Shown here piece by piece: positions 1 through 46,089 of a stretch of DNA of 64,000 nucleotides (its first letter is position 1; the number at the start of each line of letters is the position of its first letter). The stretch is taken from positions 716 to 64,715 of the IMG/VR virus record IMGVR_UViG_3300021422_000208; one strand, 5' to 3'. Source of the stretch: a virus. A program made the position numbers and the translations under genes. The notes beneath the pieces are model-generated. The model ran no database searches and was not told where the DNA came from. It saw only the letters and a program-made list of their open reading frames with translations.

Positions 1-357
1 GCTGCTAGAATGTCGAAAGGCATCGTAACTAAATTATTACAACTAATAGGCATTAAATCAACTGGGTTAATTTCTACCGCATTATCTGGTACTACGGGTA
101 TTGCAGTTTGGGCAGCATTGATGTCATATATCGCTTCGGAACACGGTTCTAAACTTATCAGTGAAGTTTTATTGAAGCCATTATTTGATGACATACCTCG
201 TAGCAGTTTGGCTTCATTGGCTGCGAACGCCGGTGCGACAATCGAATCTGAACTGCTTGATCTTATTAAAGGTGCTACTACTCAAAGTAATGCTACTCAA
301 AGTAATATAGTACCAGATACGACATCGTCTGGTACTACTGAACCACCGGTAGTTTAG
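1..357 (+). CDS. Hypothetical protein, probably the 3' part of a gene starting before the window
   Basis: The frame is open from base 1 (GCT GCT AGA ATG...). There is no RBS before ATG 10. It ends at a hairpin shared with the convergent ORF. Confidence 0.5.
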   Translation, partial: AARMSKGIVTKLLQLIGIKSTGLISTALSGTTGIAVWAALMSYIASEHGSKLISEVLLKPLFDDIPRSSLASLAANAGATIESELLDLIKGATTQSNATQSNIVPDTTSSGTTEPPVV

Positions 358-30150: not shown

Positions 30151-33100
30151 ATGGCTGAGTTTAAATTAGGACGATTACGATTTGTATGGCAAGGTGCCTG
30201 GGTAACTGCTCATACTTATGTTAAAGATGATATTGTACGATATGGGTCGCATACATACGTATGTTTAGTGGGTGGTACCAGTAGTGCTGATTTTTACACC
30301 GATTTAAATGCGTCAACTCCAGTGTGGAGTTTGATGTCATCTGGTATTGCTTGGCGAGGTAATTGGTCAATTAGTACTTATTATAAAATTGGTGATGTCA
30401 TTAAGTATGGTTCTAATACATATGTATGTTACACTGGTCATACTTCAAGTGCTGCCGTTGATAGTGGTTTTTACACTGATTTAACAGCGCATTGGCAAAT
30501 ATTTACAACGGGTCAATCATGGTTAGGTAATTGGTCAATTAGTACTTATTATAAAATTGGTGATATTATTAAGTATGGTGCCAATACATATACATGTTAC
30601 ACTGGTCATACGTCTAGTGCCACTGTAAATGGTGGTTTTTATACTGATATGGCAGCGCACTGGCAGCTATTTGTAACTGGTCAGGTATGGTTGGGTAATT
30701 GGACAACTAGTACTTATTATAAAATTAGTGATATTATTAAATATGGCGCTAAAGATTATATTTGTGTAATCGGGCATACTTCCTCTGGTACTATCGCTGG
30801 TGGTTTTTATTCAGACTTAGCGTTGTCTAATTGGACGTTGATGGTTGATGGCGTTGCGTGGAATGGTACTTGGGCAAATTCTAATTATTATAAAGTCGGT
30901 GACATTGTTAATTACGGTGGTATTACTTATATCTGCGTGACTGGTCATTCCAGCCAATCAACTTTAGAATTGGATCAGGGTAATTGGTCGGTTTTTGTGC
31001 GTGGGATTGATTATACGGGTATATGGTCATCAGCTAATGTAATTTACAAAATTAATGATTTGGTTCATTATGGTGCAAATATTTGGATATGTGTTGATGC
31101 TCATACTTCAACTGTTGTGTTTGAGACCAATAAATTTAGTATATTTGTACAAGGCTTGGAGTATGTCAATACTTGGGATTCAAGTTCGTCATATATCATT
31201 GGTGATATTGCTACGTTCGGTGGTTACACGTATACATCATTGACTACTGGGAACGTGGCAAATACTCCAGCTACGAGTCCTGCTTCATGGGCACCGTTTA
31301 CAACTGGTTTTACTATGGGCGGTTCCTGGGATGATGTGACTGCTTATTTAGTTGGTACGGTCGTTAATTATGGTGGTTATACTTACGTGGCGATGCTTGA
31401 CAGTGTTGCGGTAAGTCCGCCATCTAGTCCTACTGCCTGGTGTTTGTTGAATACTGGGTTGTATAATCGGGGTAATTGGACATCCGGTGATGTATATCAT
31501 CTAGGTGATATAGTTTCATTTATGTCTAGTTCGTATACTTGCGTGGCCGAGCATACTGCGTCTACGCCTGTTGATCCAGTGAATGATACACTTGGGGTAT
31601 ATTGGCACATACTGGCACAAGGTAGTGCTAATAGTTTTAATACTACTACTGGTGACATTACGTATCGAGCAGCATCCGGTTCAGACGCACGATTGCCGCT
31701 GGGAACAGACGGACAAGTTTTGCGAGTTACTGCTGGATTGCCCACTTGGGAATATTATGGTGTTATCACCAATGTGCATTATGTTTCAATTACTGGCACC
31801 GATGCTGTTGGTTACGGGCACACGTTAGATAAACCGTGGCGAACTATTCAATATTCATGCCAACAAATTAGTAATGGTACTCACAATCAGAGTGCTGCGT
31901 ATTTATTAAAAGCCAACAGATCATGGGCAGTGGCTGAAATGTATTATTGGATGTTAGATCAAATGGCACATAATATTCCACCATTTAATGCCTCATCAGT
32001 TTGGTCAGCCACACAGGCACAGTTGGATGCCAGTTATATAGTTGACGCGATAGTATTTGATATGACACGCGGCGGTAATAGTCAGACAGTTGAGACAGCT
32101 CTTGCGTATTTTAATCCAACTGATCCAACTCAGTATTATAATGCAGCTACTGCATCGGCGATCGCGTATTTTAATCCTGCTATTAACAAATTACTAACTT
32201 TGTTGACTAACGCAATGAGTAATAGTGCGCCTGTTACTTCTTATCAATCGTTATATCTTCCAATGACCCCAGTTTCTATCACTGGTATTGTCGGAAATGG
32301 TGCAGTAGTTACTGTTAGCTTTGCGACTGAGCCTAATGTACTATTTGACATAGGTGGCAATATCACAATTGCTGGCGTAGCTGCATATAATGGTACTTAT
32401 ACGGTAATTGCCGCTACTACCACCGGGGTGAGTTTTAATAGTAGTGTTACTACTGCTTGGGTTAGTGGCGGTACGGTAGTGGGTGTGCCATTTACTCAAA
32501 CTATAAATTTAAGTTATACCACTGAATCTGGTTCTGTTGCGCTTGCGACATCGTTGGTTGGAATCATAACTTCCGCAATAACTGCTGGAAATACGTCAGC
32601 TATTCCATTGCCGAATCAAGGTGAGACTGTTACATTATTTGTTAAAAATGGTACATATGCTGAAATATTGCCAATTAGTGTACCAAATAATGTATCACTA
32701 GTCGGTGATGAATTGCGTGGTGTGATAGTGGAGCCAATGAGTGGGTACTCTGGGAGTAATATGTTTTATGTCCGAAATGGATCTATTATTCGCAATATGA
32801 CATTGACTGGATTGCATGGCGTATTAAGTGCTCCCAATGCGTATGGTACTAAGCGACCGACTGGTGGTTCATTTATAAGTTTAGACCCAGGTACTGGTCC
32901 AACTGATACTACTGTATGGATTAAAAATAGATCACCATATATTCAAAATGTCACGAGTACTAATTCATCTGGTACCGTTGGCATGAAAATTGATGGTAAA
33001 TTGCATAATGGTGGTAATAAATGTATTTTAGCCAATGATTTCACTCAAATATTAAATGATGGAATTGGGGTATGGTGTACTGGTACTAGTGCACGGGCCG

Positions 33101-34959
33101 AATGTGTGTCAGTATTTACTTATTATAATTACATAGGGTATTTAAGTGAGGCTGGTGGGAATATACGAGCTGCTAATAGTAATCATACATATGGTACATA
33201 CGGCGGCGTGTCAGAAGGGTATGATGTCACCGAAACTCCTGCAACCGGGGTAGTCACCAACCAAGCTAGTCAAGCTATTGTGACAAATGTATTAACTAAT
33301 GGTAATAACATTCTATGGTTAGAATACTCCAATGCCGGACAACTATATACCGCAGCAACTTATTCAATATCAAGTTCCAATGGATTTGGTGCTTTTGTTA
33401 GTTCAATTAATACTTACAGTAATGCCGTATGTGAAGTACGTATAACATCAGGTGGATCAGGCTACATCAGTACTATAAATTCGGCACAAACTGGTACTGG
33501 AACTAGTATTATTTTATCAGCCGCTGATACTTCAACTACTGGCCAATATATTGGTATGCGTATTATAATAACGGCAGGTACTGGTGCTGGCCAATATGGA
33601 TATATTCAAGCATATAATGCCGGTACTAAAGAGGCTATTATATATTCTAATGGCATACTTGGATGGAATATCGCAGTTGCTGGTACGCTAGTAGTGCCAG
33701 TATTGGATCAAACTACTACTTATTCAATTGAGCCACGGGTAACTTTTACCGGAGTTGGAACTGGTGCGTTAGCTAGAGCATCGGTCGTGAGTGGTGTTAT
33801 AACTGCCATCCGGATAATAAATCCAGGCAGTGGATATACAAATGTCCCAACTATTGGTATTATTGATCCCAACGCAACTACTGTTGGAACATACACGCCT
33901 AGAATACAAAATGGTGTATTAGGTCAGCCAACCTGGAGTAGTCGAGGTACTAATTATAATACTGCCGTGGTAACTGTTGCTGGCGACGGGTATGCTGAAT
34001 TTTTGCAAATTGGATTTTATTTAAATATTCGCTCATTAACAGCCATACCAACTGCTGGTGCATCCATTACTATTGCTGGGAATGCCAATCATTATGCGGT
34101 AGTTGCGGTGAGTAACCAAACAGGTTCTGCTGGCAATTATACTGCGACACTTCAAATTAATCCAATGATAGGTAGTGCGTTAGCACCGGTTCACGGAGCT
34201 AGTGTTACTATGCGTTCACGGTATAGCCAAATGCGATTGACCGGGCATGATTTCGCATATGTTGGAACTGGTAATTTGGTAAGTACCAATTATCCAGGTA
34301 TCCCATTGATTCCTGGCTCGGCATCGGCTCAAGTGCGTGAAAATAATGGCGGAAGAGTATTTTACAGCGCGACCGATCAGGATGGTAATTTTAATGTTGG
34401 CAATTTATTCACTATTCAGCAAGCTACCGGGGTGGCATCATTAAATGTGAGTAATTTTAATTTATCTGGTCTATATAGTTTGCAATTGGGCGGTAGTGGT
34501 GCCACTGTGACACAGTTTAGTACAGATGGTACGTTCACTGCAAATAGCGATGGATTATTGCCAACTCAAAAAGCAATTAAAACTTATATTGCCAGTCAAT
34601 TAGGCGCGGGTGGTGCTAATTTGGCGGTCACGAGCTTGAGTGCCGGTAATGTGGTAATAAATGGTAATACTATAGTTAGCATAAATGGGGTTGATCTAAC
34701 AATTCAAGCATCGGCTGGCCGTAGTGTGCAATTTCCAACGATGGTGACTCATGGTATAGGGTCACTTACTACGTATACCACTAATTCATCTATCGTTCAT
34801 GATAGTGGTTCGACTGATACCTATTCAACTGGATCTAGTTTAGTTCTAAATGGTACAACAGTGCTACCGGTACTGCCTGTGAATCCAACTGACCTTACTA
34901 ACAAAAAATATGTTGACCGGGTATTGTCACTTAACAACCTATGGACGTCTGCTTGGTGA
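30151..34959 (+). CDS. Large fibre protein with Trp-rich carbohydrate-binding-like repeats and a beta-helix
   Basis: About 8 WxGxWxxxxYYKxGDxxxYG repeats (first ones 168 nt apart, similar at nucleotide level); YAEILPISVP..GDELRG beta-helix motif. Confidence 0.75.
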   Translation: MAEFKLGRLRFVWQGAWVTAHTYVKDDIVRYGSHTYVCLVGGTSSADFYTDLNASTPVWSLMSSGIAWRGNWSISTYYKIGDVIKYGSNTYVCYTGHTSSAAVDSGFYTDLTAHWQIFTTGQSWLGNWSISTYYKIGDIIKYGANTYTCYTGHTSSATVNGGFYTDMAAHWQLFVTGQVWLGNWTTSTYYKISDIIKYGAKDYICVIGHTSSGTIAGGFYSDLALSNWTLMVDGVAWNGTWANSNYYKVGDIVNYGGITYICVTGHSSQSTLELDQGNWSVFVRGIDYTGIWSSANVIYKINDLVHYGANIWICVDAHTSTVVFETNKFSIFVQGLEYVNTWDSSSSYIIGDIATFGGYTYTSLTTGNVANTPATSPASWAPFTTGFTMGGSWDDVTAYLVGTVVNYGGYTYVAMLDSVAVSPPSSPTAWCLLNTGLYNRGNWTSGDVYHLGDIVSFMSSSYTCVAEHTASTPVDPVNDTLGVYWHILAQGSANSFNTTTGDITYRAASGSDARLPLGTDGQVLRVTAGLPTWEYYGVITNVHYVSITGTDAVGYGHTLDKPWRTIQYSCQQISNGTHNQSAAYLLKANRSWAVAEMYYWMLDQMAHNIPPFNASSVWSATQAQLDASYIVDAIVFDMTRGGNSQTVETALAYFNPTDPTQYYNAATASAIAYFNPAINKLLTLLTNAMSNSAPVTSYQSLYLPMTPVSITGIVGNGAVVTVSFATEPNVLFDIGGNITIAGVAAYNGTYTVIAATTTGVSFNSSVTTAWVSGGTVVGVPFTQTINLSYTTESGSVALATSLVGIITSAITAGNTSAIPLPNQGETVTLFVKNGTYAEILPISVPNNVSLVGDELRGVIVEPMSGYSGSNMFYVRNGSIIRNMTLTGLHGVLSAPNAYGTKRPTGGSFISLDPGTGPTDTTVWIKNRSPYIQNVTSTNSSGTVGMKIDGKLHNGGNKCILANDFTQILNDGIGVWCTGTSARAECVSVFTYYNYIGYLSEAGGNIRAANSNHTYGTYGGVSEGYDVTETPATGVVTNQASQAIVTNVLTNGNNILWLEYSNAGQLYTAATYSISSSNGFGAFVSSINTYSNAVCEVRITSGGSGYISTINSAQTGTGTSIILSAADTSTTGQYIGMRIIITAGTGAGQYGYIQAYNAGTKEAIIYSNGILGWNIAVAGTLVVPVLDQTTTYSIEPRVTFTGVGTGALARASVVSGVITAIRIINPGSGYTNVPTIGIIDPNATTVGTYTPRIQNGVLGQPTWSSRGTNYNTAVVTVAGDGYAEFLQIGFYLNIRSLTAIPTAGASITIAGNANHYAVVAVSNQTGSAGNYTATLQINPMIGSALAPVHGASVTMRSRYSQMRLTGHDFAYVGTGNLVSTNYPGIPLIPGSASAQVRENNGGRVFYSATDQDGNFNVGNLFTIQQATGVASLNVSNFNLSGLYSLQLGGSGATVTQFSTDGTFTANSDGLLPTQKAIKTYIASQLGAGGANLAVTSLSAGNVVINGNTIVSINGVDLTIQASAGRSVQFPTMVTHGIGSLTTYTTNSSIVHDSGSTDTYSTGSSLVLNGTTVLPVLPVNPTDLTNKKYVDRVLSLNNLWTSAW

Positions 34960-34993
34960 TAAATAATAATAACGATTTAGGAGTATTAAAAAT

Positions 34994-37900
34994 ATGACAA
35001 CAGCAGCAAAATACGGTGCGCAGGATCTGAATGGTAATCCATTCAGTTATCAACAAATAGTTGCCCCAGTCTCATCGAACAATATAGTAGTCAATGCCAC
35101 ATTTGCTAATCGAAATGGCGCAGACGCAAAGGTACGATTAGCCGAAACATCAGTGCCATTAGTATCACAATCGGTGGCAAGTACTCAAGGATTATTTCCA
35201 TTTGCCGCAACTGCTAGCGCAAATTCAATGATTATACCAACTGCACAAGCATTGACAGTAACTGACACGAGCTTTGGTAGTAACCTAATAACAACTGCTA
35301 GTTATGCTGTTTTTAGTACAATGGTTAATACTAATATAATCACATGTGTGGCTACCAAATCCTTTAATCTAGGTGAACCAGTTGTATTTGTTGGTTCGCT
35401 TGGTAATTTAATTTCAGGTAATATTTATTATGTGTTGACTATTAATAGTGCCACTACTTTTACCGTTTCGACTTCATTGGGTGGCATTCCATTTGCATTA
35501 ACTACCGCCACCGGTACTATACTTGTGCAAGAAACGGTGACCAATTTAGTAATAAATGAACCAATAATGTTTTCAGGTACTGGATTTGGTGGTATTACAA
35601 GTGGACTTTCCTATTACGTATTGACCATAACTGATATGACATCATTTACTATCTCGACATTTCCAAGTGGTCCACCGGTATCAATGTTTACCGCGACTGG
35701 TAATCTTTCAGTTGGGTATAATCCAATGGTATCGACATTGAATCTATCATCAACCGCAGTTGGTACCAATGTTAAGACATTGCAGACACTGACTATTTCT
35801 ACTGCAGATGTTGGTACTAATGTATTCACTTCTGCTAGCATTGCTGTTACCGCGACTACTTTGTCTACCAATTTAATAACTTCGGCTAGCACTGCCACGT
35901 TGACAGTTGGACAACCAGTTGTATTTACTGGTTCGTTGGGTAATTTAGTTAGTGGTACACTTTATTATGTACGAAGTGTTATCAGTAGTACACAGTTTAC
36001 TGTGTCGTCAATCATTGGTGGTGTTGCTGTAATTTTGACAACAGCATCTGGTAATATCGTTGTTCAGCAATCAACTACTACTTTGGCAGTGAATCAGCCA
36101 ATAGTATTTAATGGTACCGCATTTGGTGGAGTGGTATCTGGAGTTAACTATTATATCTCGGCAATTTCCAGTAATACTACCTTCAAGGTGTCTTCTGTGC
36201 CAGGTGGTTCCGTATTTCAATTATATACCGCATCCGGTAACATGGTATTAGGAACAGCATCCTTGCCAGCCACATTAAGTATCGTTAATACTGCCGCAAC
36301 AGCAATGCTTGGCACTGTTGCAGTAACTGCTACCACAACTGGTACGAATTTAATAACCGCAGCGACTACTTCATCATTGGCGATTGGTCAACCAATTGTA
36401 TTCAGTAGTGCCATAGGCAATTTACTAGTAGGTACTACCTATTACGTATTGGCTATTCCAACGCTCACGACATTCAGTGTGTCGGCATATGTTTCTGGAT
36501 TAGCATTTCCATTGAGTGATGCCATTGGTAACGTTACACTAAGTACACAGCAATCATTAAATATTGCAAGTGCCACGACTGGTAGTAATCAATTGACTAC
36601 TGCCGTTGTTCAAACAACTAATACTACCGTTACTACTAATTTAATTACCGTGGTGTCTACTGCTGGATTTTATGTTGGTATGCCAGTTGTTTTTGCAGGA
36701 ACGGTATTTGGTAATATTGTGGCCAACCAACTTTATTACATATTAACGGTCAATAGTTCAACTACTTTTGCGGTATCTATTAATATTAATGGCCCAGTGC
36801 TAGTACTATCTACCGCAAGTGGCAGTTTATTAACTGTTCAGCAATCGACCACTGACGTTGGTGTTAATCAACCGGTTGTCTTTTCTAGTAGTACTCCAGC
36901 GCAAACATATAACATAGCCAATACTACAACTGGTACCAATGTAGTAACTACTCGTGCGATACCGATTACTGCAACTACTACTGGTACAAATGTCATCACT
37001 GCAACTGATACGACCTCATTATTTATCGGTCAACCGGTTGTATTTAATGGATCATTAGGAAATTTAATTGGTAGTACAATTTATTATGTTCAAAGTATCC
37101 CTACTAGTACTCAATTTACTGTATCTGCCACCTTTAGTGGAGTGGTATTTGCGTTAGATACTGCTGCTGGTAGTATTAATTACCAAGAGGCAACTACTAA
37201 TTTAATTGTAAATGAATTGGTTACATTTAGTGGATCGGTATATGGCAATTTAATAGCAGGCACTAATTATTATATACAAAGTGTGGTTTCAAACACATCA
37301 TTTACTGTATCTTCTACTGTAAATGGTAGTATTACTTCGTTGGCAACTGCTACTGGTGTTATGGTAGCAAGTGTCACAATTCCAACTTATTCATTAACGC
37401 TTGGTAATACGACAGTTGGCACTAATGTTATAACTAATTCAATAGTGGCAGTTACTGCCACTGCCGTTGCTACCAATTTAGTGACAATGAGTAGTACTGC
37501 CACCCTGACAGTTGGGCAACCCATTGTGTTTAATGGTACTGCATTTGGTAATATTGTAGCTGGTACTATTTATTATATACAAGCAATCCCATCTAGTACC
37601 ACACTTGTCATATCAGCCACTTTGAATGGTGAAATTTTTGTATTAAGTACCGCTAGTGGCACAATGAGTGTATCTGGTGCTACTACTGGGTTAGTTTTAA
37701 ATCAGCCAATTGTATTTGCTGGTACTACCTTTGGTAATATCATTGCTGGTGCTATTTATTATATACAAAGCGTACCAACTGCACAGACATTTACCGTGTC
37801 AATTATGCCAGGTGGTTCTGCGTTTGCCTTAGTGACCGCAACTGGTACAATGACTAGTAGTATGCCAATTTTTGGCGGAGTATCTGCTAATATTACGTAT

Positions 37901-40900
37901 TACGTTAACAGCGTTGTGTCTAATATCGCCTTCACTGTTAGTACTACCCCAGGTGGATCGCAATTTTCATTAACATCAGCAACTGGGTATATGCGAGTGA
38001 TAGTTGGCCCATCAGTAACTGCCAATACTAATATTTTAACTATTGGTGCACTTGCTGTCACTGCTACTACTGCTGTGACAAATGTAATAACTGTTGCAAA
38101 TGCAAGCACACTGGCTATCGGACAAGCTATTGTATTCAATGGCAAATTGGGCAATTTGGTTACTGGTACTATATACTACGTATTGACCATACCATCTACT
38201 ACAACATTTACTGTATCTGCAATATCGGGTGGTTCGATCTATTCATTGGCGACTGCCACTGGTAATATCACTGTGTCGCAGTCAACTGGTGGGTTGTCGC
38301 TGAATCAGCCTATTATATTTGCGTCGGCGGCATTGCCATTGACGATTGGTAATACGACACATACAACTAATGTAGTTACTAGTGCAATAGTGGCAGTAAC
38401 TGCCACCACGACTGGTACTAATTTGATCACGGTAACTGATACCGGCACTTTAGTGGTAGATCAACCGGTTGTGTTTAGTGGATCATTGGGTAACTTAATT
38501 GGCGGAACTGTATATTATGTTCGAGGTATTTCAAATTTAACCAAGTTCACCGTGTCAACTGTGGTTTCTGGTACTGTATTTGAATTAGCGACTGCCACTG
38601 GTAGTATTAATGTTCAACATGCGACCAGCAGTTTAGCAATCAATCAGCCAGTTGTTTTTTCAGGTTCTACTTTTGGTAATATAGTTGCTGGTACTACGTA
38701 TTATGTTCAAAATTTGGTGTCAAGTACTTCGTTCAGCGTGTCAACTTCAATTAATGGAACTGTGTTCGTATTAGCAACTGCTAGTGGAACGATGTCGGTA
38801 AATTTATCAACTGTTGGCGGCATAATTGCTGGAACTACTTATTATGTTCAAAATATTACGAATGATACCTCTTTTAGTATATCCGCGACGTATGGTGGTG
38901 GACCATTTATTTTGACTAATTTTAATGGCCTGATGACCGCGAATGTAACTGCCGTTGTGCCTGTTATAACTATTTCGAATACTACTGTTACCGCCAATGT
39001 ATTAACGACTGCGTCAATAGCAGTGTCTGCGACTACTACTGGTACTAATTTAATTACTGCTACTAGTACGCTAACATTGGCGATAGGTCAGCCAGTGGTA
39101 TTCAGCGGGGCGTTAGGTGGACTGGTTGCTAATGTATCATACTATGTATTAACTATTAATAGTATAACGCAGTTTACCGTGTCGTCTACGTTTAATGGTG
39201 TGGTATATTCAATAACAACTGCCACTGGTAGTATTACCGTGTCACAGTCAACCGCAGCACTTGTAATAAATCAGCCATTATTTTTTACTGGAACGGGATT
39301 TGGTAATCTTGTTACTAGTACTACGTATTATGTACGATCGATTGTGTCATTGACACAGTTATCTGTGTCGCAGTCATTTGGTGGGTCAGTATTTATATTA
39401 ACGACTGCAACTGGTACTATGGCATTTGGTGGCCCAGCACAAACGATGGTTGCTAGTAATACTACAATTACTACCAATGTTATTACGTTATATGCTATTA
39501 CCGTTTCTGCAACAGCTGCTGGTACTAATATCATAACCTGTGCTAGTACTTATTTCATGTCAGTTAATATGCCAGTGGTATTCAATAGCACGTATGGTGG
39601 GATAACTAGTGGGGTAATTTATTATGTTCAGAGTATACCTAGTTCCTTAACATTTACTGTTTCAATGTTGCCAAACGGGCCACAGGCTATATTGAGCACT
39701 GCAGTAACTACATCTAGTGTTCAGCAAGCAACTACGAACTTATTACTTAATCAGTCAATTATATTTAGTGGTACCACGTTTGGTAATATCATTGCTGGCA
39801 CGACCTATTATGTATTAAATATTGTATCTAGTTCGACGTTTACAGTATCAACTGTGCCTGGTGGAAGTGTATTTGTATTGGCAACTGCGACTGGGTTAAT
39901 GCCATACTCCCCGATGTCCACTAGTGTGATTTCTATAAATTCGATTACTACTACACCTATTGCAATATCGAGTACATCCACTGTGACTAATCTAATCACT
40001 TGTATCAGTACTAGTACGTTGGTTATTGGGCAAGCTGTTGTTTTCAGTGGTAATTTGGGTAATTTATTGGGAAATACTATCTATTATGTATTGACTATTC
40101 CTAGTAGTACTATGTTCACTGTTTCTATTGCATTATATGGTACAGCGGTGTCATTAAGCTCTGCTAGTGGGGTTATTAATGTTCAACAATCAACCTCATC
40201 TTTAACGATAGGCCAGCCAATTATATTTTCCAGTACATTGGCTCCTGTTACTATAGCAAATGCTAGTAGTTCTGGTAATGTTATCACATTAGCTGCCGTG
40301 ACAGTTACTGCCACGACAATAAGTACTAATACAATTACTGCCAGCAGTACTGCTACTTTATTAGTTGGTCAGTCCGTCGTTTTTAGTGAATCATTGGGTA
40401 ATTTATTAGCAAATACTATATATTATGTTCAAACTATTGTGAATTCTACCCAATTTACGGTGTCGCTGCTATTAAATGGAGCAGTAGTTTCATTGGTAAC
40501 TGCGAGTGGTAGTGTTACTGTGACGCAATCAACTACTGGTTGGATAATTAATCAGCCGATTGTATTTACTGGAACGGGCTTTGGTAACATAGTTTCTGGT
40601 ACTACTTACTATATTAACAGTGTACTATCCAGAACAACGTTTGTTATCTCAGCTGGGTATAATGGTACAGCATTTGTATTAGGTACAAGTGGTGGTACGA
40701 TGACTGGCACTTTCGTCGCTTTTGGTGGATTGACGGTAAATTCTATATATTACATACAAAGTATACCAAGTCTCACCTCTATTATCGTTTCCAACATAAT
40801 AGCAGCGCCGAACAATGGTAATACAAATATAGTGGCATTGACTGCTGGGACTGGTTCACTTAATGCCACTGTCATATCACCGGTTCCATCATTGCCAATT

Positions 40901-43828
40901 TCGGCAACTACCGTGACGACTAATGTACTTACTACGTCACCTATTACGATTAGTGTCACGGCCATTGGTACAAATTTTATCACTTGTAATGCGACTGATG
41001 TATTGGTATATGGACAGCCGATCGTATTTACCGGTACGGCATTTGGTAATATCGTGGCTGGAACAATCTATTATGTATTAAACATCGTGAATAGTACTAC
41101 ATTTACAATGTCAACTACTTATGGTGGTGCTGTTTTTGCATTAGTGACGGCATCGGGTACCTTGACAATGAATCCATCTACTACTAACTTAGTAATTGGT
41201 CAACCAATTGTGGCATTTGGAGCAGTTTTTGGTAATGTTGGGTATTCAACTACTTATTATGTTAATTCGATAGTTAGTACTACTACCTTTACTGTGTCAG
41301 TGGCTCAGTCAATTGGATATTCTGGTACTGCATTGACGTTGGCAACATCGTCTGGTACTATGGTAATGGCTTATGGGCCGATCCAATTGTCATTGATATC
41401 TAACACTACTACTACCAGTAATTTATTAACTGTTCAGTCAACAATTGTTACATCTACCTCCTACTATGGTACAAATTTAATTGGTTGTTATAATACTTAT
41501 ATGTTAGCACTTGGTATGCCAGTTACGTTTGGTACTACTGCTAATGGGTTGGTCATTGGTACTATTTATTATATTGCCAGTGTACCATCTGCTACTACGT
41601 TTACCGTGTCAGCTGTGTTAGGCGGTCCAACATTATCGCTGACTTACGGTAGTAGTTTGTCGATATCAATGTATCAAGCAGTTACTAACTTGTGGATCAA
41701 TCAGGCTATTTCATTTTCAAGTAATGTTTCAGGCAGTACAGTCTTCGGTGGCATAGTTGCTGGCATGACATATTACGTTCAGAGTATACCATCATTGTAT
41801 ACCTTTACTGTGTCAACTCAGCCATTTGGTGCGGTTTATCCATTGGCGACAGCCGCATACAGTTCGTATCAAAAACCCATGAGTTACACAGTGGGTACAT
41901 TGCCTATCCAAGTATCAAATGTTTTTATTAATCAATCATTTCCGATAGTTGGTTCTTCGGCAGCTGGAAATATATTAACAGTTGGCAATTTATTAACTGC
42001 TGGTAATATTCCGATCGTAATTACTGCTGCATCTTCAACTACTAATATCTTGACGTGTACTTCGACCGCAACTTTATCAGTTGGCTTGCCGATTGTGTTT
42101 AGTTCTGGCTTTGCTGGATTGACAAATGGTATGACGTATTATATATTGTCTATTTTAAATAATACCCAATTTACTATTGCTAATAGTTGGGGTGGGCAGC
42201 AGGCCATTCTAAATGTGCAGGGAGTAACTTCTGGTAGTACTACAATGCTTACGATCACTGGGACTAATCAAATGTTTACCAATTCAATTACTACTACCGG
42301 TAATACTTATAATATATATACTGGATTACCAATTGTGTTTACTGGAACGTCATTTGATTCTGCGTTGGTTATCGGAGTTACTTATTATGTCTTACAAGTA
42401 ACGAGTGTAACTACATTTAGTGTGAGTGCTACATCCGGTGGCACTGTATTGACATTGACTGGTGCAACTGGTAATATGACTATGGTATCGGCTGCGCAAT
42501 TAACTAACATAGGTGTTACTATACAACCGTCAACGGCTAATTTAACGATTGGTATGCCAATGTATGCTACTGGTACCACATTTGGAAATATATTAGCGAA
42601 TGCCACGTATTATGTCAATACGATATTAAGTCCAACTACATTCACTGTTACTACTGCTCAATATTCTGCTGTTGCTTTTACATTAACTACCAATTTTGGT
42701 TACATGACACTTATGGCCAGTACTGGTCAAACTGGTACTGGTAGTACTGGTACTACCAGTTTAATTGCAGCAGCTCCAATTATTTTTACTGGAGCAACTA
42801 TTATTGTTACGAGTTGTAATGGAACGTTGTTGACTACTACTGGAAACACCGGTGTATTAGTCATTAACCAAGCATTGATGTTTACCGGCTATACTATTGG
42901 CGGTATCCAACCCGATGTATATTATTATGTACAAAGTATTCCTTCATTTAATACATTTACACTTAGTGCGACCGTTGGTGGGGTGGCTATTAGTTGGGGA
43001 ACTACTTCTAACATAATGACAGCGCAAGTTGTGACTAGTGATAGTACGGCTATTTTACCGTACAATGTATATTATGTACAATCAGTTCAGAGTCCATATA
43101 CATTTAGTATCACCCCAGTCATTGGTGGTGCCGCAACTACTGTGTCAACAGTGAATGGGGCAGTTATAATACAAAGTAATATTTGTACATTATCAACTGG
43201 CGGTTCAACTGCATATTTAGCGGCAAACCAATTAGTGACATTTACCGGGGTGGGTTTTGGAAATCTTCAAACATTTCCAGTGACTAATTTGCCATTTATC
43301 GTAACGAATACGACAATCACTTCCAACTATGTGACAGTGTCAAATACTGCTACGTTATTGGTCAATCAACCTGTCGTGTTTTTGGGTACGACGTGGGGTG
43401 GATTAACCGCTTTTCAGACATATTATGTTTTGGCAGTAGCGAGTAACACTCAATTTACTGTTAGTTTGACGCCTGGTGGGACTGCAGTGGTACTAGCCAC
43501 GATTGCTGCTGCGGCTGCGACCCCTTCATTTTTCATGGTGTCGGCTTATTATGTTAAAGCAGTTGTTAGTAATAATCAATTTGTGTTGAGTTCAACGCCA
43601 GGTGGTAATATTCAGCAGTTAACTTCCGCATATGCAATAGGCGGTAATGTTTTACTGGCAAATGGTCAACCAGTCTTTACTGATTTCTTAGAATATGATG
43701 CGTTAATTGCCGGTACTGGGGTATTAGAGCGAACCGGCATTATCGTGCCGCCTAATACATATCTATATGCTTCTAGCAATATTTCACAAGTTACCGCATT
43801 GGCAATTGGTATTCAGGAGGGCGTGTAA
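34994..43828 (+). CDS. Giant 2944-aa T/S/V/G-rich repeat fibre (~34 repeat domains)
   Basis: Recurring xQPxVFxGxxGNxxxGxxYYVxxxxSxTxFxVS units; very few charged residues; late promoter at 34960 and AGGAG RBS. Confidence 0.85.
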   Translation: MTTAAKYGAQDLNGNPFSYQQIVAPVSSNNIVVNATFANRNGADAKVRLAETSVPLVSQSVASTQGLFPFAATASANSMIIPTAQALTVTDTSFGSNLITTASYAVFSTMVNTNIITCVATKSFNLGEPVVFVGSLGNLISGNIYYVLTINSATTFTVSTSLGGIPFALTTATGTILVQETVTNLVINEPIMFSGTGFGGITSGLSYYVLTITDMTSFTISTFPSGPPVSMFTATGNLSVGYNPMVSTLNLSSTAVGTNVKTLQTLTISTADVGTNVFTSASIAVTATTLSTNLITSASTATLTVGQPVVFTGSLGNLVSGTLYYVRSVISSTQFTVSSIIGGVAVILTTASGNIVVQQSTTTLAVNQPIVFNGTAFGGVVSGVNYYISAISSNTTFKVSSVPGGSVFQLYTASGNMVLGTASLPATLSIVNTAATAMLGTVAVTATTTGTNLITAATTSSLAIGQPIVFSSAIGNLLVGTTYYVLAIPTLTTFSVSAYVSGLAFPLSDAIGNVTLSTQQSLNIASATTGSNQLTTAVVQTTNTTVTTNLITVVSTAGFYVGMPVVFAGTVFGNIVANQLYYILTVNSSTTFAVSININGPVLVLSTASGSLLTVQQSTTDVGVNQPVVFSSSTPAQTYNIANTTTGTNVVTTRAIPITATTTGTNVITATDTTSLFIGQPVVFNGSLGNLIGSTIYYVQSIPTSTQFTVSATFSGVVFALDTAAGSINYQEATTNLIVNELVTFSGSVYGNLIAGTNYYIQSVVSNTSFTVSSTVNGSITSLATATGVMVASVTIPTYSLTLGNTTVGTNVITNSIVAVTATAVATNLVTMSSTATLTVGQPIVFNGTAFGNIVAGTIYYIQAIPSSTTLVISATLNGEIFVLSTASGTMSVSGATTGLVLNQPIVFAGTTFGNIIAGAIYYIQSVPTAQTFTVSIMPGGSAFALVTATGTMTSSMPIFGGVSANITYYVNSVVSNIAFTVSTTPGGSQFSLTSATGYMRVIVGPSVTANTNILTIGALAVTATTAVTNVITVANASTLAIGQAIVFNGKLGNLVTGTIYYVLTIPSTTTFTVSAISGGSIYSLATATGNITVSQSTGGLSLNQPIIFASAALPLTIGNTTHTTNVVTSAIVAVTATTTGTNLITVTDTGTLVVDQPVVFSGSLGNLIGGTVYYVRGISNLTKFTVSTVVSGTVFELATATGSINVQHATSSLAINQPVVFSGSTFGNIVAGTTYYVQNLVSSTSFSVSTSINGTVFVLATASGTMSVNLSTVGGIIAGTTYYVQNITNDTSFSISATYGGGPFILTNFNGLMTANVTAVVPVITISNTTVTANVLTTASIAVSATTTGTNLITATSTLTLAIGQPVVFSGALGGLVANVSYYVLTINSITQFTVSSTFNGVVYSITTATGSITVSQSTAALVINQPLFFTGTGFGNLVTSTTYYVRSIVSLTQLSVSQSFGGSVFILTTATGTMAFGGPAQTMVASNTTITTNVITLYAITVSATAAGTNIITCASTYFMSVNMPVVFNSTYGGITSGVIYYVQSIPSSLTFTVSMLPNGPQAILSTAVTTSSVQQATTNLLLNQSIIFSGTTFGNIIAGTTYYVLNIVSSSTFTVSTVPGGSVFVLATATGLMPYSPMSTSVISINSITTTPIAISSTSTVTNLITCISTSTLVIGQAVVFSGNLGNLLGNTIYYVLTIPSSTMFTVSIALYGTAVSLSSASGVINVQQSTSSLTIGQPIIFSSTLAPVTIANASSSGNVITLAAVTVTATTISTNTITASSTATLLVGQSVVFSESLGNLLANTIYYVQTIVNSTQFTVSLLLNGAVVSLVTASGSVTVTQSTTGWIINQPIVFTGTGFGNIVSGTTYYINSVLSRTTFVISAGYNGTAFVLGTSGGTMTGTFVAFGGLTVNSIYYIQSIPSLTSIIVSNIIAAPNNGNTNIVALTAGTGSLNATVISPVPSLPISATTVTTNVLTTSPITISVTAIGTNFITCNATDVLVYGQPIVFTGTAFGNIVAGTIYYVLNIVNSTTFTMSTTYGGAVFALVTASGTLTMNPSTTNLVIGQPIVAFGAVFGNVGYSTTYYVNSIVSTTTFTVSVAQSIGYSGTALTLATSSGTMVMAYGPIQLSLISNTTTTSNLLTVQSTIVTSTSYYGTNLIGCYNTYMLALGMPVTFGTTANGLVIGTIYYIASVPSATTFTVSAVLGGPTLSLTYGSSLSISMYQAVTNLWINQAISFSSNVSGSTVFGGIVAGMTYYVQSIPSLYTFTVSTQPFGAVYPLATAAYSSYQKPMSYTVGTLPIQVSNVFINQSFPIVGSSAAGNILTVGNLLTAGNIPIVITAASSTTNILTCTSTATLSVGLPIVFSSGFAGLTNGMTYYILSILNNTQFTIANSWGGQQAILNVQGVTSGSTTMLTITGTNQMFTNSITTTGNTYNIYTGLPIVFTGTSFDSALVIGVTYYVLQVTSVTTFSVSATSGGTVLTLTGATGNMTMVSAAQLTNIGVTIQPSTANLTIGMPMYATGTTFGNILANATYYVNTILSPTTFTVTTAQYSAVAFTLTTNFGYMTLMASTGQTGTGSTGTTSLIAAAPIIFTGATIIVTSCNGTLLTTTGNTGVLVINQALMFTGYTIGGIQPDVYYYVQSIPSFNTFTLSATVGGVAISWGTTSNIMTAQVVTSDSTAILPYNVYYVQSVQSPYTFSITPVIGGAATTVSTVNGAVIIQSNICTLSTGGSTAYLAANQLVTFTGVGFGNLQTFPVTNLPFIVTNTTITSNYVTVSNTATLLVNQPVVFLGTTWGGLTAFQTYYVLAVASNTQFTVSLTPGGTAVVLATIAAAAATPSFFMVSAYYVKAVVSNNQFVLSSTPGGNIQQLTSAYAIGGNVLLANGQPVFTDFLEYDALIAGTGVLERTGIIVPPNTYLYASSNISQVTALAIGIQEGV

Positions 43829-43829
43829 C

Positions 43830-44594
43830 ATGGCTCGGTATCAACAACTGCCGGATAGAATAGATACTTTCTGTTCTTATATACCGGATCAAGCAATGTG
43901 CATGAGTTATGGTATGACACAGGATTGCTGTGTCATACCAGCAAATGGCAAATGTCAGGCAAATATCACTACTGCGTGTGCGTGGACAGTGCCGCCAGGT
44001 GTGTCGTCGATATTTGTTGAATTATGGGGACCAGGTGGCGGTGGTGGTGGCGGCGGTTCTGGTGCTACTTGCGTATCTGGTACCGGCGGCAGTAGTGGTG
44101 GTTATTCTGCAGCTACTATTCCAACTGCGCCAGGGTGTGTTTATACGGTGTGTGCCGGTATTGGCGGCTGTTATGGATGCTGCGGCACTGCTGGCACAGC
44201 CGGAACTACCGCCTACATGTCTGGCTATAATACTAGTACATTTTTATGCGCGGCAGGAGGAACGCCTGGGTGTTCAGTAACGCCGCAAGGATCAATTGGG
44301 CTTAATACGTTAACAACTCCATCGGCGGTTAGTACCAATTGGTTGGGATACAGTAATAATTATATAGTAACTGGGGGACAAGGTGGTAATGTTATTAACG
44401 CAAGTAGTTGCGCATTAATGTCTAATAGAGGTGGATCATCATCATTTAATGGTGGTATTGGTGGGTATTTTTTCTTATCTGCTACCGCAGATGGTGGTGG
44501 TTTCCCAGGTGGTGGTGGTTCAGCAGCCTGTACAACTACTACCGCTAGTTGCGGCGCATGTGGCGGTAGCGGGTTAGTCAGGATATGGTATTGA
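43830..44594 (+). CDS. Gly/Cys-rich adhesin-like protein 1
   Basis: Start moved to MARYQQ; WTVPPGVSSIFVELWGPGGGGG...FPGGGG...GLVRIWY. Confidence 0.7.
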   Translation: MARYQQLPDRIDTFCSYIPDQAMCMSYGMTQDCCVIPANGKCQANITTACAWTVPPGVSSIFVELWGPGGGGGGGGSGATCVSGTGGSSGGYSAATIPTAPGCVYTVCAGIGGCYGCCGTAGTAGTTAYMSGYNTSTFLCAAGGTPGCSVTPQGSIGLNTLTTPSAVSTNWLGYSNNYIVTGGQGGNVINASSCALMSNRGGSSSFNGGIGGYFFLSATADGGGFPGGGGSAACTTTTASCGACGGSGLVRIWY

Positions 44595-44603
44595 GGAATA
44601 ATT

Positions 44604-45437
44604 ATGGGAAGATATAATACACAAGTGGTTTATACTGATGGTACCGCACATACTCAGTGGACCTGTCAACAAACTAGTTTACAAACGCAAGGAACATGTG
44701 TTCTTCAGCTTACGGGTGGGTTAGGAGGTACTGGCACATGTGGGCCAGGATCTGGCGTATCCTGTCAATGGAATGTTCCAGCTGGTGTGTCATCAGTTGT
44801 CATTGAAATATGGGGTGGCGGTGGCGGTGGCGGTTCGGCAGTTATGTGCCAATGCGATACGATTGGTAATGGTGGCGGTGGCGGCGCGTATGCTAGGAAA
44901 ACATTGGCCGTTACTGCTGGCACATGTTACACCATATGTGTTGGTGCCGGAGGTGCCGGAGGTGGCTTAGGTACATTATTAAGTAATGCTACGAGTGCGA
45001 CGTGTTGTTGTGGTGCAAGTGGTGGTACTACTTATATTACTGGTACTGGACTAGCTAATTTATGTGCCGAAGGTGGGTATGGTGGGGAATCACGGATATC
45101 TAGTATGACGACAGTTTCACCAAATGGTGGATGGGCAGGTACTGGTGGCGATGTTAATGTCAGGGGGTCTGATGGTGGCTCTTATAACGATACCTATTTG
45201 AATAGGTATACATGGGGTGGCAGTTCACCATTTGGTGGCAGAAATATATATCTAGCATATGATTGTGCTAGTAAATATCAAGATTTATGCTGCACTGGCC
45301 GAGCAGGTGGTATTTGTGGCTATTATGGAGTATTTCCAGGCGGTGGCGGGACAGGCGGGTTTGCAAGTTGCTGCTGTATTGGGATAGCACCATGCGGTGG
45401 CAATGGTGCACCTGGCGCAATAAGAATTTGGATGTAA
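44604..45437 (+). CDS. Gly/Cys-rich adhesin-like protein 2
   Basis: WNVPAGVSSVVIEIWGGGGGGG...FPGGGG...GAIRIWM. Confidence 0.7.
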   Translation: MGRYNTQVVYTDGTAHTQWTCQQTSLQTQGTCVLQLTGGLGGTGTCGPGSGVSCQWNVPAGVSSVVIEIWGGGGGGGSAVMCQCDTIGNGGGGGAYARKTLAVTAGTCYTICVGAGGAGGGLGTLLSNATSATCCCGASGGTTYITGTGLANLCAEGGYGGESRISSMTTVSPNGGWAGTGGDVNVRGSDGGSYNDTYLNRYTWGGSSPFGGRNIYLAYDCASKYQDLCCTGRAGGICGYYGVFPGGGGTGGFASCCCIGIAPCGGNGAPGAIRIWM

Positions 45438-45443
45438 GGACAC

Positions 45444-46079
45444 ATGATGAATAATTTAGAATTGAATATACCCAGTGATGAAGCTGAGCAGCTTGAGCTG
45501 GAAAATGAACAGTTATATAAGATAATATGGTTTGCTGATAGCCCAAATCCAGGATATATTGAACCTGTGACATTTAAAAAATCAGAATTGCCAGTGCATA
45601 ATCGAGCAGAAGTACTCGGTATGTATCGAGATTACGTCGAAGTATTGCCGGGATCTAATCTATGGCATTTGTGCGTTGATGGGTCATTGGTGGATCAAAC
45701 GCATGAGTTGTGGGACATGAAAGTCATTGGATGGGATTGGGACAAACAAGAAGTGATAGTTGAGCCATTGCCGCCTATTACGTGGGATGATATTAAACTT
45801 CGCCGAAATGGAATGTTGGCCATAAGTGATACTATGTTTAATTTTGACACCCCAGATCCGCTGAAAACACAATGGCTGGAATATCGTCAATTATTGCGTG
45901 ATTTACCAGCTAGAGAAAGTGCGGCAGGAAATACGCCAACTACGGTCTTTTGGAATGATTATATACCGCCATATCCAGTGAGTGCACGAGCAGGTATTGC
46001 GATTGCTGATGCTAAGAAATGTGTGTGGTATACGGCAGAACCAATTGCTAGTAAAACTAGTAAAAATAAATTGAATTAA
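45444..46079 (+). CDS. Tail fibre assembly chaperone-like protein
   Basis: WDDIKLRRNGML..SD..D.P..W..YRQLLRDLP motif. Confidence 0.7.
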   Translation: MMNNLELNIPSDEAEQLELENEQLYKIIWFADSPNPGYIEPVTFKKSELPVHNRAEVLGMYRDYVEVLPGSNLWHLCVDGSLVDQTHELWDMKVIGWDWDKQEVIVEPLPPITWDDIKLRRNGMLAISDTMFNFDTPDPLKTQWLEYRQLLRDLPARESAAGNTPTTVFWNDYIPPYPVSARAGIAIADAKKCVWYTAEPIASKTSKNKLN

Positions 46080-46089
46080 AGGAATTAAT

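What the first reader, a model, noticed from the sequence alone, without database searches (positions are those of the whole stretch)
34994..43828. Recursive 'Russian-doll' architecture: one domain nested inside copies of itself
Seen: the unit is S1 (xTxTTxGTNxIT) + TxxLxxxQPxVF + GNxxxGxxYYV...FxVS...LxTAxG, and I count ~34 YY cores. The units are not simply tandem: complete units interrupt others at two fixed points, after S1 and after PxxF. Example ~38010-38945: A-S1 [unit B] A-QPIIF [C-S1 [unit D] C-rest] A-GGIIAGTTYYV. At ~36560-38000 one parent holds three children, two of which hold their own child. Inference: a branched, dendritic fibre rather than a linear beads-on-string chain, built by repeated in-frame insertion into permissive loops. 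I know no described phage protein with this topology.
Basis: partly seen in the sequence, partly recalled or inferred. Interest (0 to 1): 0.85.

Follow-up and report, generated by a model that had tools for sequence, protein, structure and literature searches.

The report
Self-nested beta-barrels in phage fibre protein
A 2,944-residue tail-fibre-module protein of an uncultured freshwater T4-like jumbo phage is built from 34 copies of one small beta-barrel, 15 of which are split open and carry other copies in their loops. Nesting of this kind is published for cyanobacterial RNA polymerase, but I found no published description of it for a phage fibre.

Summary
ORF 34994-43828 (+) encodes 2,944 aa with exactly 34 YY[IV] cores. 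HMM pieces tile aa 87-2880 and obey one grammar: Unit = S1 [units] S2 [units] S3.

- **Units:** 19 are contiguous and 15 are split, always at the same two loops. Nesting reaches depth 3.
- **Structure:** an AlphaFold2 model of M5 (pLDDT 83) plus structural alignment supports truly discontinuous barrels. No coordinates were available, so the outermost barrel is supported only indirectly.
- **Fold:** the unit resembles the ubiquitin-E1 FCCH and endosialidase beta-barrels, a fold already seen on phage virion surfaces.
- **Evolution:** a two-barrel nested "pair" module is ancestral in the family. It was mostly duplicated whole, and occasionally inserted into another pair.
- **Shape:** a string of 15 modules with local branching, not one big tree.
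- **Function:** multivalent surface adhesion. This is inferred, not shown.
- **Precedent:** the closest published one is the self-nested SBHM array (Si3) of cyanobacterial RNA polymerase.

This scan has noted similar self-nested barrels in other cyanophage proteins, and this same gene on another record.

Verdict: a real feature and a new variant of a known kind.

The parts
34981..34984 (+). Shine-Dalgarno GGAG, 9 nt before the ATG. The intergenic gap to the upstream fibre gene is only 34 nt, so co-transcription is likely.
34994..43828 (+). Whole ORF, 2,944 aa (P0001). It has no Pfam, NCBIfam, PHROG or PDB sequence match.
34994..35164 (+). Conserved non-repeat N-terminal region (aa 1-57, MTTAAKYGAQDLNGN...). 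It is shared by family members of 594-2973 aa and is a presumed docking part.
35255..35713 (+). Module M1 (aa 88-240): pair S1[leaf 105-178]S2S3
35747..36247 (+). Module M2 (aa 252-418): pair S1[leaf 283-357]S2S3, preceded by one extra orphan S1-like strand (aa 252-260)
36317..36538 (+). Module M3 (aa 442-515): single contiguous barrel
36569..37996 (+). Module M4 (aa 526-1001), six barrels: S1 526-535 [leaf 539-612] S2 620-633 [pair 641-791] [pair 805-954] S3 960-1001. Depth 3.
   Evidence: conserved in P0002-P0005
38018..38938 (+). Module M5 (aa 1009-1315), four barrels: A-S1 1009-1018 [B 1021-1094] A-S2 1097-1111 [C-S1 1117-1129 [D 1133-1207] C-S2S3 1210-1269] A-S3 1275-1315. Depth 3. This is the module modelled with AlphaFold2.
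38966..39424 (+). Module M6 (aa 1325-1477): pair S1[leaf 1342-1416]S2S3
39455..39901 (+). Module M7 (aa 1488-1636): pair S1[leaf 1502-1576]S2S3
39926..40843 (+). Module M8 (aa 1645-1950), four barrels. It is a paralogue of M5 (49% identity): S1[leaf 1656-1730]S2 1733-1748[pair 1752-1904]S3 from 1910.
40898..41368 (+). Module M9 (aa 1969-2125): pair S1[leaf 1984-2059]S2S3
41396..41857 (+). Module M10 (aa 2135-2288): pair S1[leaf 2151-2223]S2S3
42014..42709 (+). Modules M11-M13 (aa 2341-2418, 2421-2497, 2498-2572): three contiguous barrels in plain tandem. Homologue P0004 lacks about one of them (P0001 aa 2426-2506).
42746..43165 (+). Module M14 (aa 2585-2724): S2 2589-2601 [leaf 2604-2676] S3 2687-2724. 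The child sits in the second loop. Conserved in all family members.
43178..43633 (+). Module M15 (aa 2729-2880): S2 2737-2752 [leaf 2768-2840] S3 2852-2880. The child sits in the second loop. Conserved in all family members.
43643..43825 (+). Conserved non-repeat C-terminal region (aa 2884-2944, ...TDFLEYDALIA..GVLERTGIIVPPNTYLYASSN...). Most of its length is conserved in the 22-row C-terminal alignment. On its own in the model its pLDDT is below 50.

Best explanation
The gene encodes a virion fibre-type protein whose body is 34 homologous beta-barrels of about 75 residues, of the E1-FCCH / endosialidase-barrel type.

**Barrel layout.** Each barrel has three sequence parts:
- S1: a first hairpin, ..TATTxGTNxIT.
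- S2: TxxLxxxQPxVF.
- S3: GNxxxGxxYYV..FTVS..G..L.TAxG.

Two loops of the barrel accept a complete folded copy, or several: the loop after S1 and the loop between S2 and S3. This works because a barrel's own N and C ends lie side by side.

**Basic module.** The basic module is a nested pair, S1[barrel]S2S3. In three modules one or two further pairs sit in the S2-S3 loop of the outer barrel, giving depth 3. In the last two modules a single barrel sits in that loop. In total 15 barrels are discontinuous in sequence and 19 are contiguous.

**Overall build.** Conserved non-repeat ends of about 57 and 60 aa flank a string of 15 modules, each a compact cluster of 1-6 barrels.

**Inferred steps.**
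- Each nested junction is held by two chain crossings, so it is stiffer and more compact than a single-linker tandem repeat.
- The barrels act as many weak glycan or surface-binding sites, giving a multivalent adhesin on the tail.
- The conserved ends dock the protein to the baseplate or to neighbouring fibre parts.

**Evolution.** The nested pair arose once. It was then duplicated as a whole and occasionally re-inserted into a copy of itself.

**Status of the claims.** The sequence grammar and its conservation are shown. Discontinuous folding is predicted by AlphaFold2. Function and oligomeric state are inferred.
For: **Grammar**
- Complementary HMM coordinates and balanced piece counts.
- Spliced S2+S3 halves of split units align with contiguous units with at most four residues missing at the splice; the exception is the M15 parent, whose S2-S3 loop was not counted as S3.
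- Adjacency statistics against 178 distant proteins with the same barrel: p = 5e-12 and p = 0.001.

**Structure, AlphaFold2 model of aa 1005-1318** (pLDDT 83.4, pTM 0.65), with VIA-align
- Leaf B (model residues 13-96) and leaf D (126-210) each superpose 70-75 residues on single barrels. The best hits are UBA6/Uba1 FCCH (Z 7.0-7.6, rmsd 2.1 A).
- Ten or more unrelated barrels align 67-74 residues within model range 106/110..267/270. Examples are phage Bridgette 8eci_2 (residues 7-77) and bacterial uL3 (6v39_D).
- Those limits are exactly the predicted limits of split barrel C, around the 80-residue insert D.
- EF-Tu and LepA domain-2 alignments span 13..288 with 66-68 residues at rmsd 2.0-2.1 A. 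So the first strand of A-S3 packs beside B, about 185 residues earlier in the chain. That is expected only if the chain returns.

**Structure, second model (aa 2573-2944)**
- One row spans 10..158 with 63 residues aligned to a 75-residue stretch of one chain, which fits split parent M14.

**Family**
- The same token strings occur in homologues at 30-98% identity.
- The minimal 594-aa member already has three split barrels.
- Inner units form a clade apart from outer units, with support 89/94.
- Relatives carry barrels that match Pfam E1_FCCH; one scores 36.8 bits against a cut-off of 29.5.

**Context**
- Upstream lie baseplate-wedge proteins and a CBM_5_12 tail-fibre protein. Downstream lie three Gly_rich_2 proteins and a tail-fibre assembly chaperone.
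- The same barrel fold decorates tail tubes, connectors, capsids and tailspikes of solved phages (PMC13576161).
- The gene occurs in lake metagenomes of 8 studies beyond the possible source study. Identical short contigs occur in a metatranscriptome.
Against: - No coordinates or PAE were available. Discontinuity is read from the first and last aligned residues and the aligned lengths.
- The outermost barrel A of M5 and the parent of M4 (three children) are not shown directly. A has lower pLDDT (about 43-86).
- Only one row supports split parent M14.
- The alignments behind the models are shallow (15 and 22 sequences) and mix paralogues.
- Z scores of 5-8 are in the range the tool calls common.
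- No binding, virion or oligomer data exist. Most phage fibres are trimers, and nothing here tests that.
- Several orphan S1- or S2-like fragments do not fit the grammar (aa 252-260, 428-440, 516-524, 2310-2323).
Confidence: 0.72

Rival explanations
1. The array is a plain tandem (beads on a string). The S1-like strands before leaf units are only linkers. The S2S3 and S3-only pieces are N-terminally truncated or decayed barrels, or neighbours swap their first hairpins, so no domain is really discontinuous.
For: - S1 pieces are short and score weakly (-4 to +6 bits).
- A few orphan S1- or S2-like fragments exist without partners.
- Only ranges were available from the models, not coordinates.
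Against: - Piece counts balance at about 34:34:34, and break points are complementary at two fixed HMM columns.
- Truncated pieces sit directly after a complete unit in 15 of 15 cases, against 4% and 23% in distant relatives.
- VIA-align rows start at 106-110 and end at 267-270 with only 67-74 residues aligned. Those are the limits of split barrel C, not of any contiguous unit.
- Leaf alignments include the leaves' own S1, so there is no swap.
Confidence: 0.1
2. The protein is an intertwined oligomeric (for example trimeric) fibre. The split pieces are completed in trans by other chains, or the repeats form a fibre fold that a monomer prediction cannot show. The nested monomer model would then be an AlphaFold artefact.
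For: - Most phage tail fibres are trimers, and fibre chaperone genes lie downstream.
- The C-terminal 60 aa are strongly conserved but unstructured in the monomer model.
- The models rest on shallow alignments.
Against: - The unit is a recognisable globular barrel, with fold matches in many solved monomeric domains and Pfam E1_FCCH hits in relatives.
- Pieces balance within one chain, which in-trans completion does not require.
- pTM is 0.65-0.71 for the monomer models.
Confidence: 0.08
3. The architecture is as in the best explanation, but the role is different. The array would be a passive spacer, shaft or decoration (whisker-like or environmental sensor) that carries the downstream Gly-rich adhesins at its conserved C-terminus, rather than binding the host itself.
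For: - The C-terminus is the most conserved part, unlike typical receptor-binding tips.
- Three Gly_rich_2 (gp38-like) proteins and chaperones follow directly.
- FCCH-like barrels on siphovirus tail tubes are described only as outward-facing decoration (PMC13576161).
Against: - Related barrels in endosialidases are known, from my own knowledge of that literature, to bind polysialic acid; this was not tested here.
- The repeat number varies widely among relatives (6 to 34 or more barrels), as expected for avidity tuning. A spacer could vary in the same way, however.
Confidence: 0.25

Closest known systems
Si3 insertion of cyanobacterial RNA polymerase beta' (sandwich-barrel hybrid motifs, SBHM): PMC10895346; survey PMC13114784
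   Same: Many copies of one small beta-rich domain family lie in one chain and are not in simple tandem. Several copies are built from distant parts of the sequence because other copies are inserted in them. The recursion reaches up to six levels.
   Different: - The fold differs: SBHM there, an FCCH-like six-stranded barrel here.
- Si3 is a single deep stack of 8 domains inside an enzyme loop. Here there are 34 domains in 15 shallow modules (depth 3 or less), using two insertion loops, in a virion protein.
- There is no sequence relation.
FCCH domain of ubiquitin-activating enzyme E1 (Pfam PF16190; e.g. 7sol_A, 4p22_B, 3cmm_A)
   Same: - The fold matches: 72-75 residues superpose at 2.1-2.3 A, Z 7.0-7.6, 15-24% identity.
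- The motif is similar (..G..V.F..v.G...lNG..y.V......F.i).
- FCCH is itself an inserted domain with adjacent ends.
- Divergent barrels in distant relatives hit PF16190.
   Different: The units of this protein do not reach PF16190 at E of 10 or less. FCCH is a single copy in an enzyme and is not a host for insertions.
Outward-facing FCCH-like / beta-barrel decoration domains of phage virion proteins: siphovirus tail tube gp39/gp13 (PMC13576161), T1 tail tube 9l0f_G, Mystique 9n71, FCWL1 9jlf_E, endosialidase barrels 4hiz and 3gvj
   Same: The barrel fold is the same (Z 6.5-7.9, 18-22% identity). The setting is also the same: the surface of phage tails and tailspikes.
   Different: Those are single contiguous domains fused to, or inserted into, a different host domain. 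None of them is described as nested in itself.
Barrel-rich giant virion proteins of cyanophages and uncultured freshwater Caudovirales (BFVD: A0A6J7WDX3, A0A6J7WHK8, Synechococcus phage Bellamy baseplate wedge initiator)
   Same: They share arrays of the same barrel (Foldseek E down to 1.5e-20, 28% identity) and the same kind of phage. Earlier notes of this scan report self-nesting in several marine cyanophage baseplate and fibre proteins.
   Different: - Within the 207 proteins I parsed, the nesting signature is concentrated in the 29 close relatives that share this protein's N and C ends.
- The other scan cases are described as deep single stacks closed by last strands in reverse order. They do not use this two-loop, pair-based grammar. 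I did not re-examine them.

Membership tests
E1_FCCH-like beta-barrel (Pfam PF16190) | Closed beta-barrel of about 70-80 residues that superposes on solved FCCH domains (described as six-stranded, Greek-key in PMC13576161; strand number and topology of the model could not be read without coordinates) | tested here: met
   VIA-align gives Z 7.0-7.6, rmsd 2.1-2.3 A and 72-75 residues aligned for leaf B against UBA6/Uba1 FCCH. The M14 leaf gives Z 7.6. These are predicted models only.
E1_FCCH-like beta-barrel (Pfam PF16190) | Sequence match to the Pfam model at its gathering score | tested here: not met
   P0001 has no PF16190 hit at E of 1 or less. None of the 19 leaf units hits it at E of 10 or less. 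Divergent barrels in distant homologues do hit it: P0067 at 36.8 bits (cut-off 29.5), and three others at 25-27 bits.
Endosialidase beta-barrel (phi92 4hiz, K1F endoNF 3gvj) | Same barrel fold | tested here: met
   Z 6.6-7.0, rmsd 2.2-2.4 A, 70-72 residues aligned, 21-22% identity.
Endosialidase beta-barrel (phi92 4hiz, K1F endoNF 3gvj) | Sialic-acid or glycan binding site | not tested
   No residue-level alignment or coordinates were available.
Self-nested repeat arrays (type case: RNA polymerase Si3) | Host and guest domains belong to the same family | tested here: met
   One HMM covers leaves and split units. Spliced halves of split units align with contiguous units with at most a few residues missing at the splice.
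Self-nested repeat arrays (type case: RNA polymerase Si3) | Split copies fold as single discontinuous domains in 3D | tested here: inconclusive
   - Barrel C is met in the AlphaFold2 model: range 106-110..267-270 with 67-74 residues aligned, in 10 or more rows.
- The M14 parent rests on a single row.
- The outermost barrel A has only indirect support (rows spanning 13..288).
- There are no coordinates and no experiment.
Self-nested repeat arrays (type case: RNA polymerase Si3) | SBHM fold | tested here: not met
   The top fold matches are FCCH and translation-protein-type barrels. RNA polymerase chains appear only as weak Foldseek rows (probability 0.05-0.06).
Phage tail fibre / fibre-module virion protein | Encoded within the baseplate and tail-fibre gene block, with fibre chaperones nearby | tested here: met
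   Upstream are phrog_13163/1469 baseplate wedge proteins and a phrog_9851 tail-fibre protein. Downstream are Gly_rich_2 proteins and a Phage_tail_APC chaperone.
Phage tail fibre / fibre-module virion protein | Sequence homology to a characterised fibre family (T4 gp34-37 and similar) | tested here: not met
   There is no significant PHROG, Pfam or NCBIfam hit. tblastn finds nothing in 50,697 GenBank phage records.
Phage tail fibre / fibre-module virion protein | Presence in the virion, trimeric fibre shape | not testable with these tools

The most novel reading that the evidence does not exclude
Self-insertion of one barrel into two of its own loops may be a general, heritable way for phages to build branched, stiff, highly multivalent adhesion fibres. 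In this family the rule would go one level further. The conserved N-terminal 57 aa and C-terminal 60 aa would fold together into one small anchor domain, so the whole 34-barrel array would be one giant insertion: a closed loop or hairpin projecting from the virion rather than a fibre with a free tip.
Probability: 0.15. Interest if true: 0.85.

Novelty: new variant of a known kind. Interest (0 to 1): 0.6.

Why it matters
Domain insertion is common, but almost always one level deep and between different families. The published extreme is the six-level Si3 stack of cyanobacterial RNA polymerase (PMC13114784).

Here one small barrel is both host and guest 15 times in a single chain, at two defined loops, and the arrangement is conserved across a family of lake phages. 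If structures confirm it, three things follow:
- It gives a natural rule set for permissive insertion sites in a very small domain, which is useful for protein design and for domain-parsing software.
- It offers an explanation for how giant phage fibre and baseplate proteins grow.
- It points to a fibre geometry (clusters of doubly tethered barrels) that differs from the trimeric shafts known from model phages.

It also warns annotators that HMM hits to "truncated" repeats in such proteins may be halves of split domains.

Tried and rejected
- **Complex prediction.** I planned an in-silico fragment complementation (aa 1005-1112 against aa 1271-1318).
- **Sequence libraries.** Pfam, NCBIfam, PHROGs and PDB-sequence searches of the whole protein and of the unit profile gave nothing usable.
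- **GenBank phages.** megablast and tblastn against 50,697 records found no match. The low-complexity filter and the withholding of near-identical records may contribute.
- **Foldseek against PDB.** With the whole four-barrel model it gave only E above 0.006. VIA-align was needed.
The idea is that the N and C ends together resemble the small 114-aa and 110-aa proteins at 19719 and 29364. BLASTP found nothing, and hhalign of N, C and N+C profiles against 120 homologues of the 114-aa protein gave a probability of about 1%. This is not supported, but it is not excluded structurally.
- **Unit-level indels at nested sites.** Among homologues at 52-60% identity the only large indel is one tandem unit, at about M12. 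So no 'empty site' allele was found for the nested positions.
- **T4 late promoter.** TATAAATA is not enriched in the window and none lies before the gene.
- **Covariation test.** I considered a DCA test of matched against swapped halves. I dropped it because subfamily signal would confound it.
- **Tree of the 34 units.** It is poorly resolved: 23 of 31 forks are open. Only the inner-unit clade is used.
Full report
**1. What is there.** The window is part of a 72.8-kb IMG/VR record estimated to be about 20% complete. Baseplate proteins are 39-41% identical to those of Synechococcus and Prochlorococcus T4-like myoviruses. Relatives of neighbouring genes sit on contigs of 350-375 kb. The source is therefore an uncultured T4-like jumbo phage. 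The gene region is held by lake and freshwater metagenomes of 8 studies beyond the possible source study.

ORF 34994-43828 (+) is intact at 2,944 aa. GGAG lies 9 nt before the ATG, and the gene starts 34 nt after the upstream fibre gene. No ORF of 100 aa or more lies opposite it.

**2. Observation check.** There are exactly 34 YY[IV] cores. I built an HMM from 13 contiguous units. It tiles aa 87-2880 into 50 pieces whose HMM coordinates are complementary:
- S1-only pieces end at column 16-21, and S2S3 pieces begin at column 14-20.
- S2-only pieces end at column 33-38, and S3-only pieces begin at column 31-42.

Separate S1, S2 and S3 HMMs give 34 S3, 33+1 S2 and about 32 S1 pieces. A six-frame search of the record gives the same 34 units.

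The string parses as 15 top-level modules:
- Seven simple pairs S1[unit]S2S3: M1, M2, M6, M7, M9, M10, plus the nested pairs counted below.
- Four single barrels: M3 and M11-13.
- Three modules in which one or two pairs also sit between S2 and S3 of the outer barrel: M4 (six barrels), and M5 and M8 (four barrels each).
- Two C-terminal modules S2[unit]S3: M14 and M15.

That makes 19 contiguous and 15 split barrels, with a maximum depth of 3.

Spliced halves of split units align with contiguous units with at most four residues missing at the splice; the exception is the M15 parent, whose S2-S3 loop was not counted as S3.

As a control I parsed 178 more distant proteins that carry the same barrel. 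There, truncated pieces follow a complete unit in only 7 of 160 and 26 of 112 cases, against 10 of 10 and 5 of 5 here (p = 5e-12 and p = 0.001).

The gene is not an assembly artefact:
- An independent 20.4-kb lake contig spans it, with 129 substitutions and one in-frame 3-nt insertion.
- Unit DNA copies are only 60-80% identical.
- Short identical contigs occur in a metatranscriptome of the source study, which suggests transcription but does not prove it.

**3. Is the nesting structural?** I modelled M5 (aa 1005-1318) from an alignment of 15 orthologous and paralogous modules. The model has pLDDT 83.4 and pTM 0.65. The tools return no coordinates, so I used the aligned ranges from exhaustive structural alignment.
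- Leaves B (model residues 13-96) and D (126-210) each superpose 70-75 residues on single barrels.
- Ten or more unrelated barrels align only 67-74 residues between model residues 106-110 and 267-270. They include a 71-residue phage domain (8eci_2, residues 7-77) and bacterial uL3, itself a split barrel.
- Those limits are exactly the predicted limits of split barrel C (C-S1 plus C-S2S3) around the 80-residue insert D.
- The leaves include their own S1, so there is no hairpin swap.
- EF-Tu and LepA domain-2 alignments reach from residue 13 to 288 with 66-68 residues at 2.0-2.1 A. So the first strand of A-S3 lies against B, about 185 residues away in sequence, as nesting predicts and a linear chain does not.
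- E1 alignments spanning 5-6..105-111 show A-S1 and A-S2 flanking B in the way the E1 adenylation domain flanks its inserted FCCH.

A second model covers aa 2573-2944, from 22 sequences (pLDDT 70.7, pTM 0.71). It gave one row (10..158, 63 residues aligned, Z 5.2) for split parent M14. Almost all other rows hit its leaf.

The outermost barrel A and the M4 parent are therefore supported only indirectly. The planned complementation test could not be run.

**4. What the unit is.** The best fold matches are:
- The FCCH domain of ubiquitin E1 enzymes (Z 7.0-7.6, rmsd 2.1 A, 15-24% identity).
- The beta-barrels of phage endosialidases (4hiz, 3gvj).
- Outward-facing domains of phage tail tubes, connectors and capsids (9l0f, 9n71, 9jlf, 7qof).
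- Translation-factor domain-2 barrels.

A 2026 paper describes FCCH domains as exterior decoration of siphovirus tail tubes (PMC13576161).

The units themselves miss Pfam PF16190. Divergent barrels in distant homologues hit it, one above the gathering score.

A profile of 19 units finds 1,644 proteins at E of 1e-3 or less among 1.84 billion representatives. BFVD holds many cyanophage and uncultured-Caudovirales virion proteins with such barrel arrays.

**5. Family and evolution.** Proteins of 594-2973 aa share three things with this one: the first 57 aa, the last 60 aa or so, and modules M14 and M15.
- The 594-aa member has one pair plus M14 and M15, which is six barrels with three of them split.
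- 1,280-aa members have five tandem pairs.
- Only the closer relatives (P0002-P0006, P0016-19, P0022) carry pairs inside the S2-S3 loop.

Inner units form a clade (support 89/94) apart from outer units. M5 and M8 are paralogous as whole modules. So a few insertion events were followed by duplication of nested modules.

**6. Function.** The gene lies between two groups of genes:
- Upstream: giant baseplate-wedge proteins and a 1,602-aa CBM_5_12 tail-fibre protein.
- Downstream: three Gly_rich_2 proteins and a tail-fibre assembly chaperone.

I infer a virion fibre whose barrels provide many weak surface-binding sites, with doubly tethered junctions that make compact, stiff clusters. The very conserved C-terminus could instead dock the downstream Gly-rich adhesins, which is the rival reading. 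None of this is tested.

**7. Comparison and novelty.** Self-nesting of one domain family is published for Si3 of cyanobacterial RNA polymerase. That array has eight SBHMs, four of them built from distant segments (PMC10895346). A 2026 survey calls its six levels the most complex case (PMC13114784).

My searches found no description of self-nesting in a phage protein. Earlier notes of this scan report similar self-nested barrels in several marine cyanophage proteins and in flagellar proteins, and report this same gene on another record. Within the scan, then, this is a recurring theme.

This case differs from the others in four ways: its two-loop, pair-based grammar, its shallow but very numerous nesting (15 split barrels of 34), the conserved end regions, and the freshwater jumbo-phage setting.

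Verdict: a real feature and a new variant of a known kind.

**8. Loose ends.**
- Orphan S1- or S2-like fragments at aa 252-260, 428-440, 516-524 and 2310-2323 fit no unit.
- The idea that the N and C ends form one scaffold domain got no support from BLASTP or hhalign, but it could not be tested by structure.

Noticed in passing
window 34994-35164 and 43643-43825: The first 57 aa and the last 60 aa or so are conserved in all family members, from 594 to 2973 aa, while the barrel number varies from 6 to 34. Most of the C-terminal stretch is conserved in the 22-row alignment, yet alone in the model its pLDDT is below 50.
   Followed up: partly
window 35747-35773, 36275-36313, 36539-36565, 41921-41962: These are orphan S1-like or S2-like fragments (aa 252-260, 428-440, 516-524, 2310-2323) with no partner pieces. 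They may be remnants of decayed units, or linkers derived from unit parts.
   Followed up: no
window 19719-20063: This 114-aa protein has 154 close homologues (51-76% identity among the 120 listed) in metagenomes, including contigs of 350-375 kb. It has no known family. It shows no detectable relation to the N and C ends of the giant protein (hhalign probability about 1%).
   Followed up: partly
window 30151-34959: The upstream 1,602-aa tail-fibre protein (phrog_9851, E 2e-206) has four or more CBM_5_12 chitin-binding-type repeats. It is probably co-transcribed with the nested-barrel gene, since the gap is only 34 nt.
   Followed up: no
window 43767-47109: Three Gly_rich_2 (PF21722) paralogues are interleaved with a Phage_tail_APC-type chaperone. 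They are candidate distal adhesins that might dock on the conserved C-terminus of the giant protein.
   Followed up: no
window 42832: A lake-water contig from another study carries an in-frame ACT insertion here, plus 129 substitutions over the 9-kb stretch laid (34900-43900). The architecture is otherwise unchanged. Homologue P0004 lacks about one tandem unit (P0001 aa 2426-2506, roughly M12).
   Followed up: partly
whole window (record G000, 72,780 nt): The record is estimated to be about 20% complete, and relatives lie on contigs of 350-375 kb. The source is therefore probably a freshwater jumbo T4-like phage only distantly related (about 40% identity in baseplate proteins) to cultured cyanomyoviruses.
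   Followed up: partly
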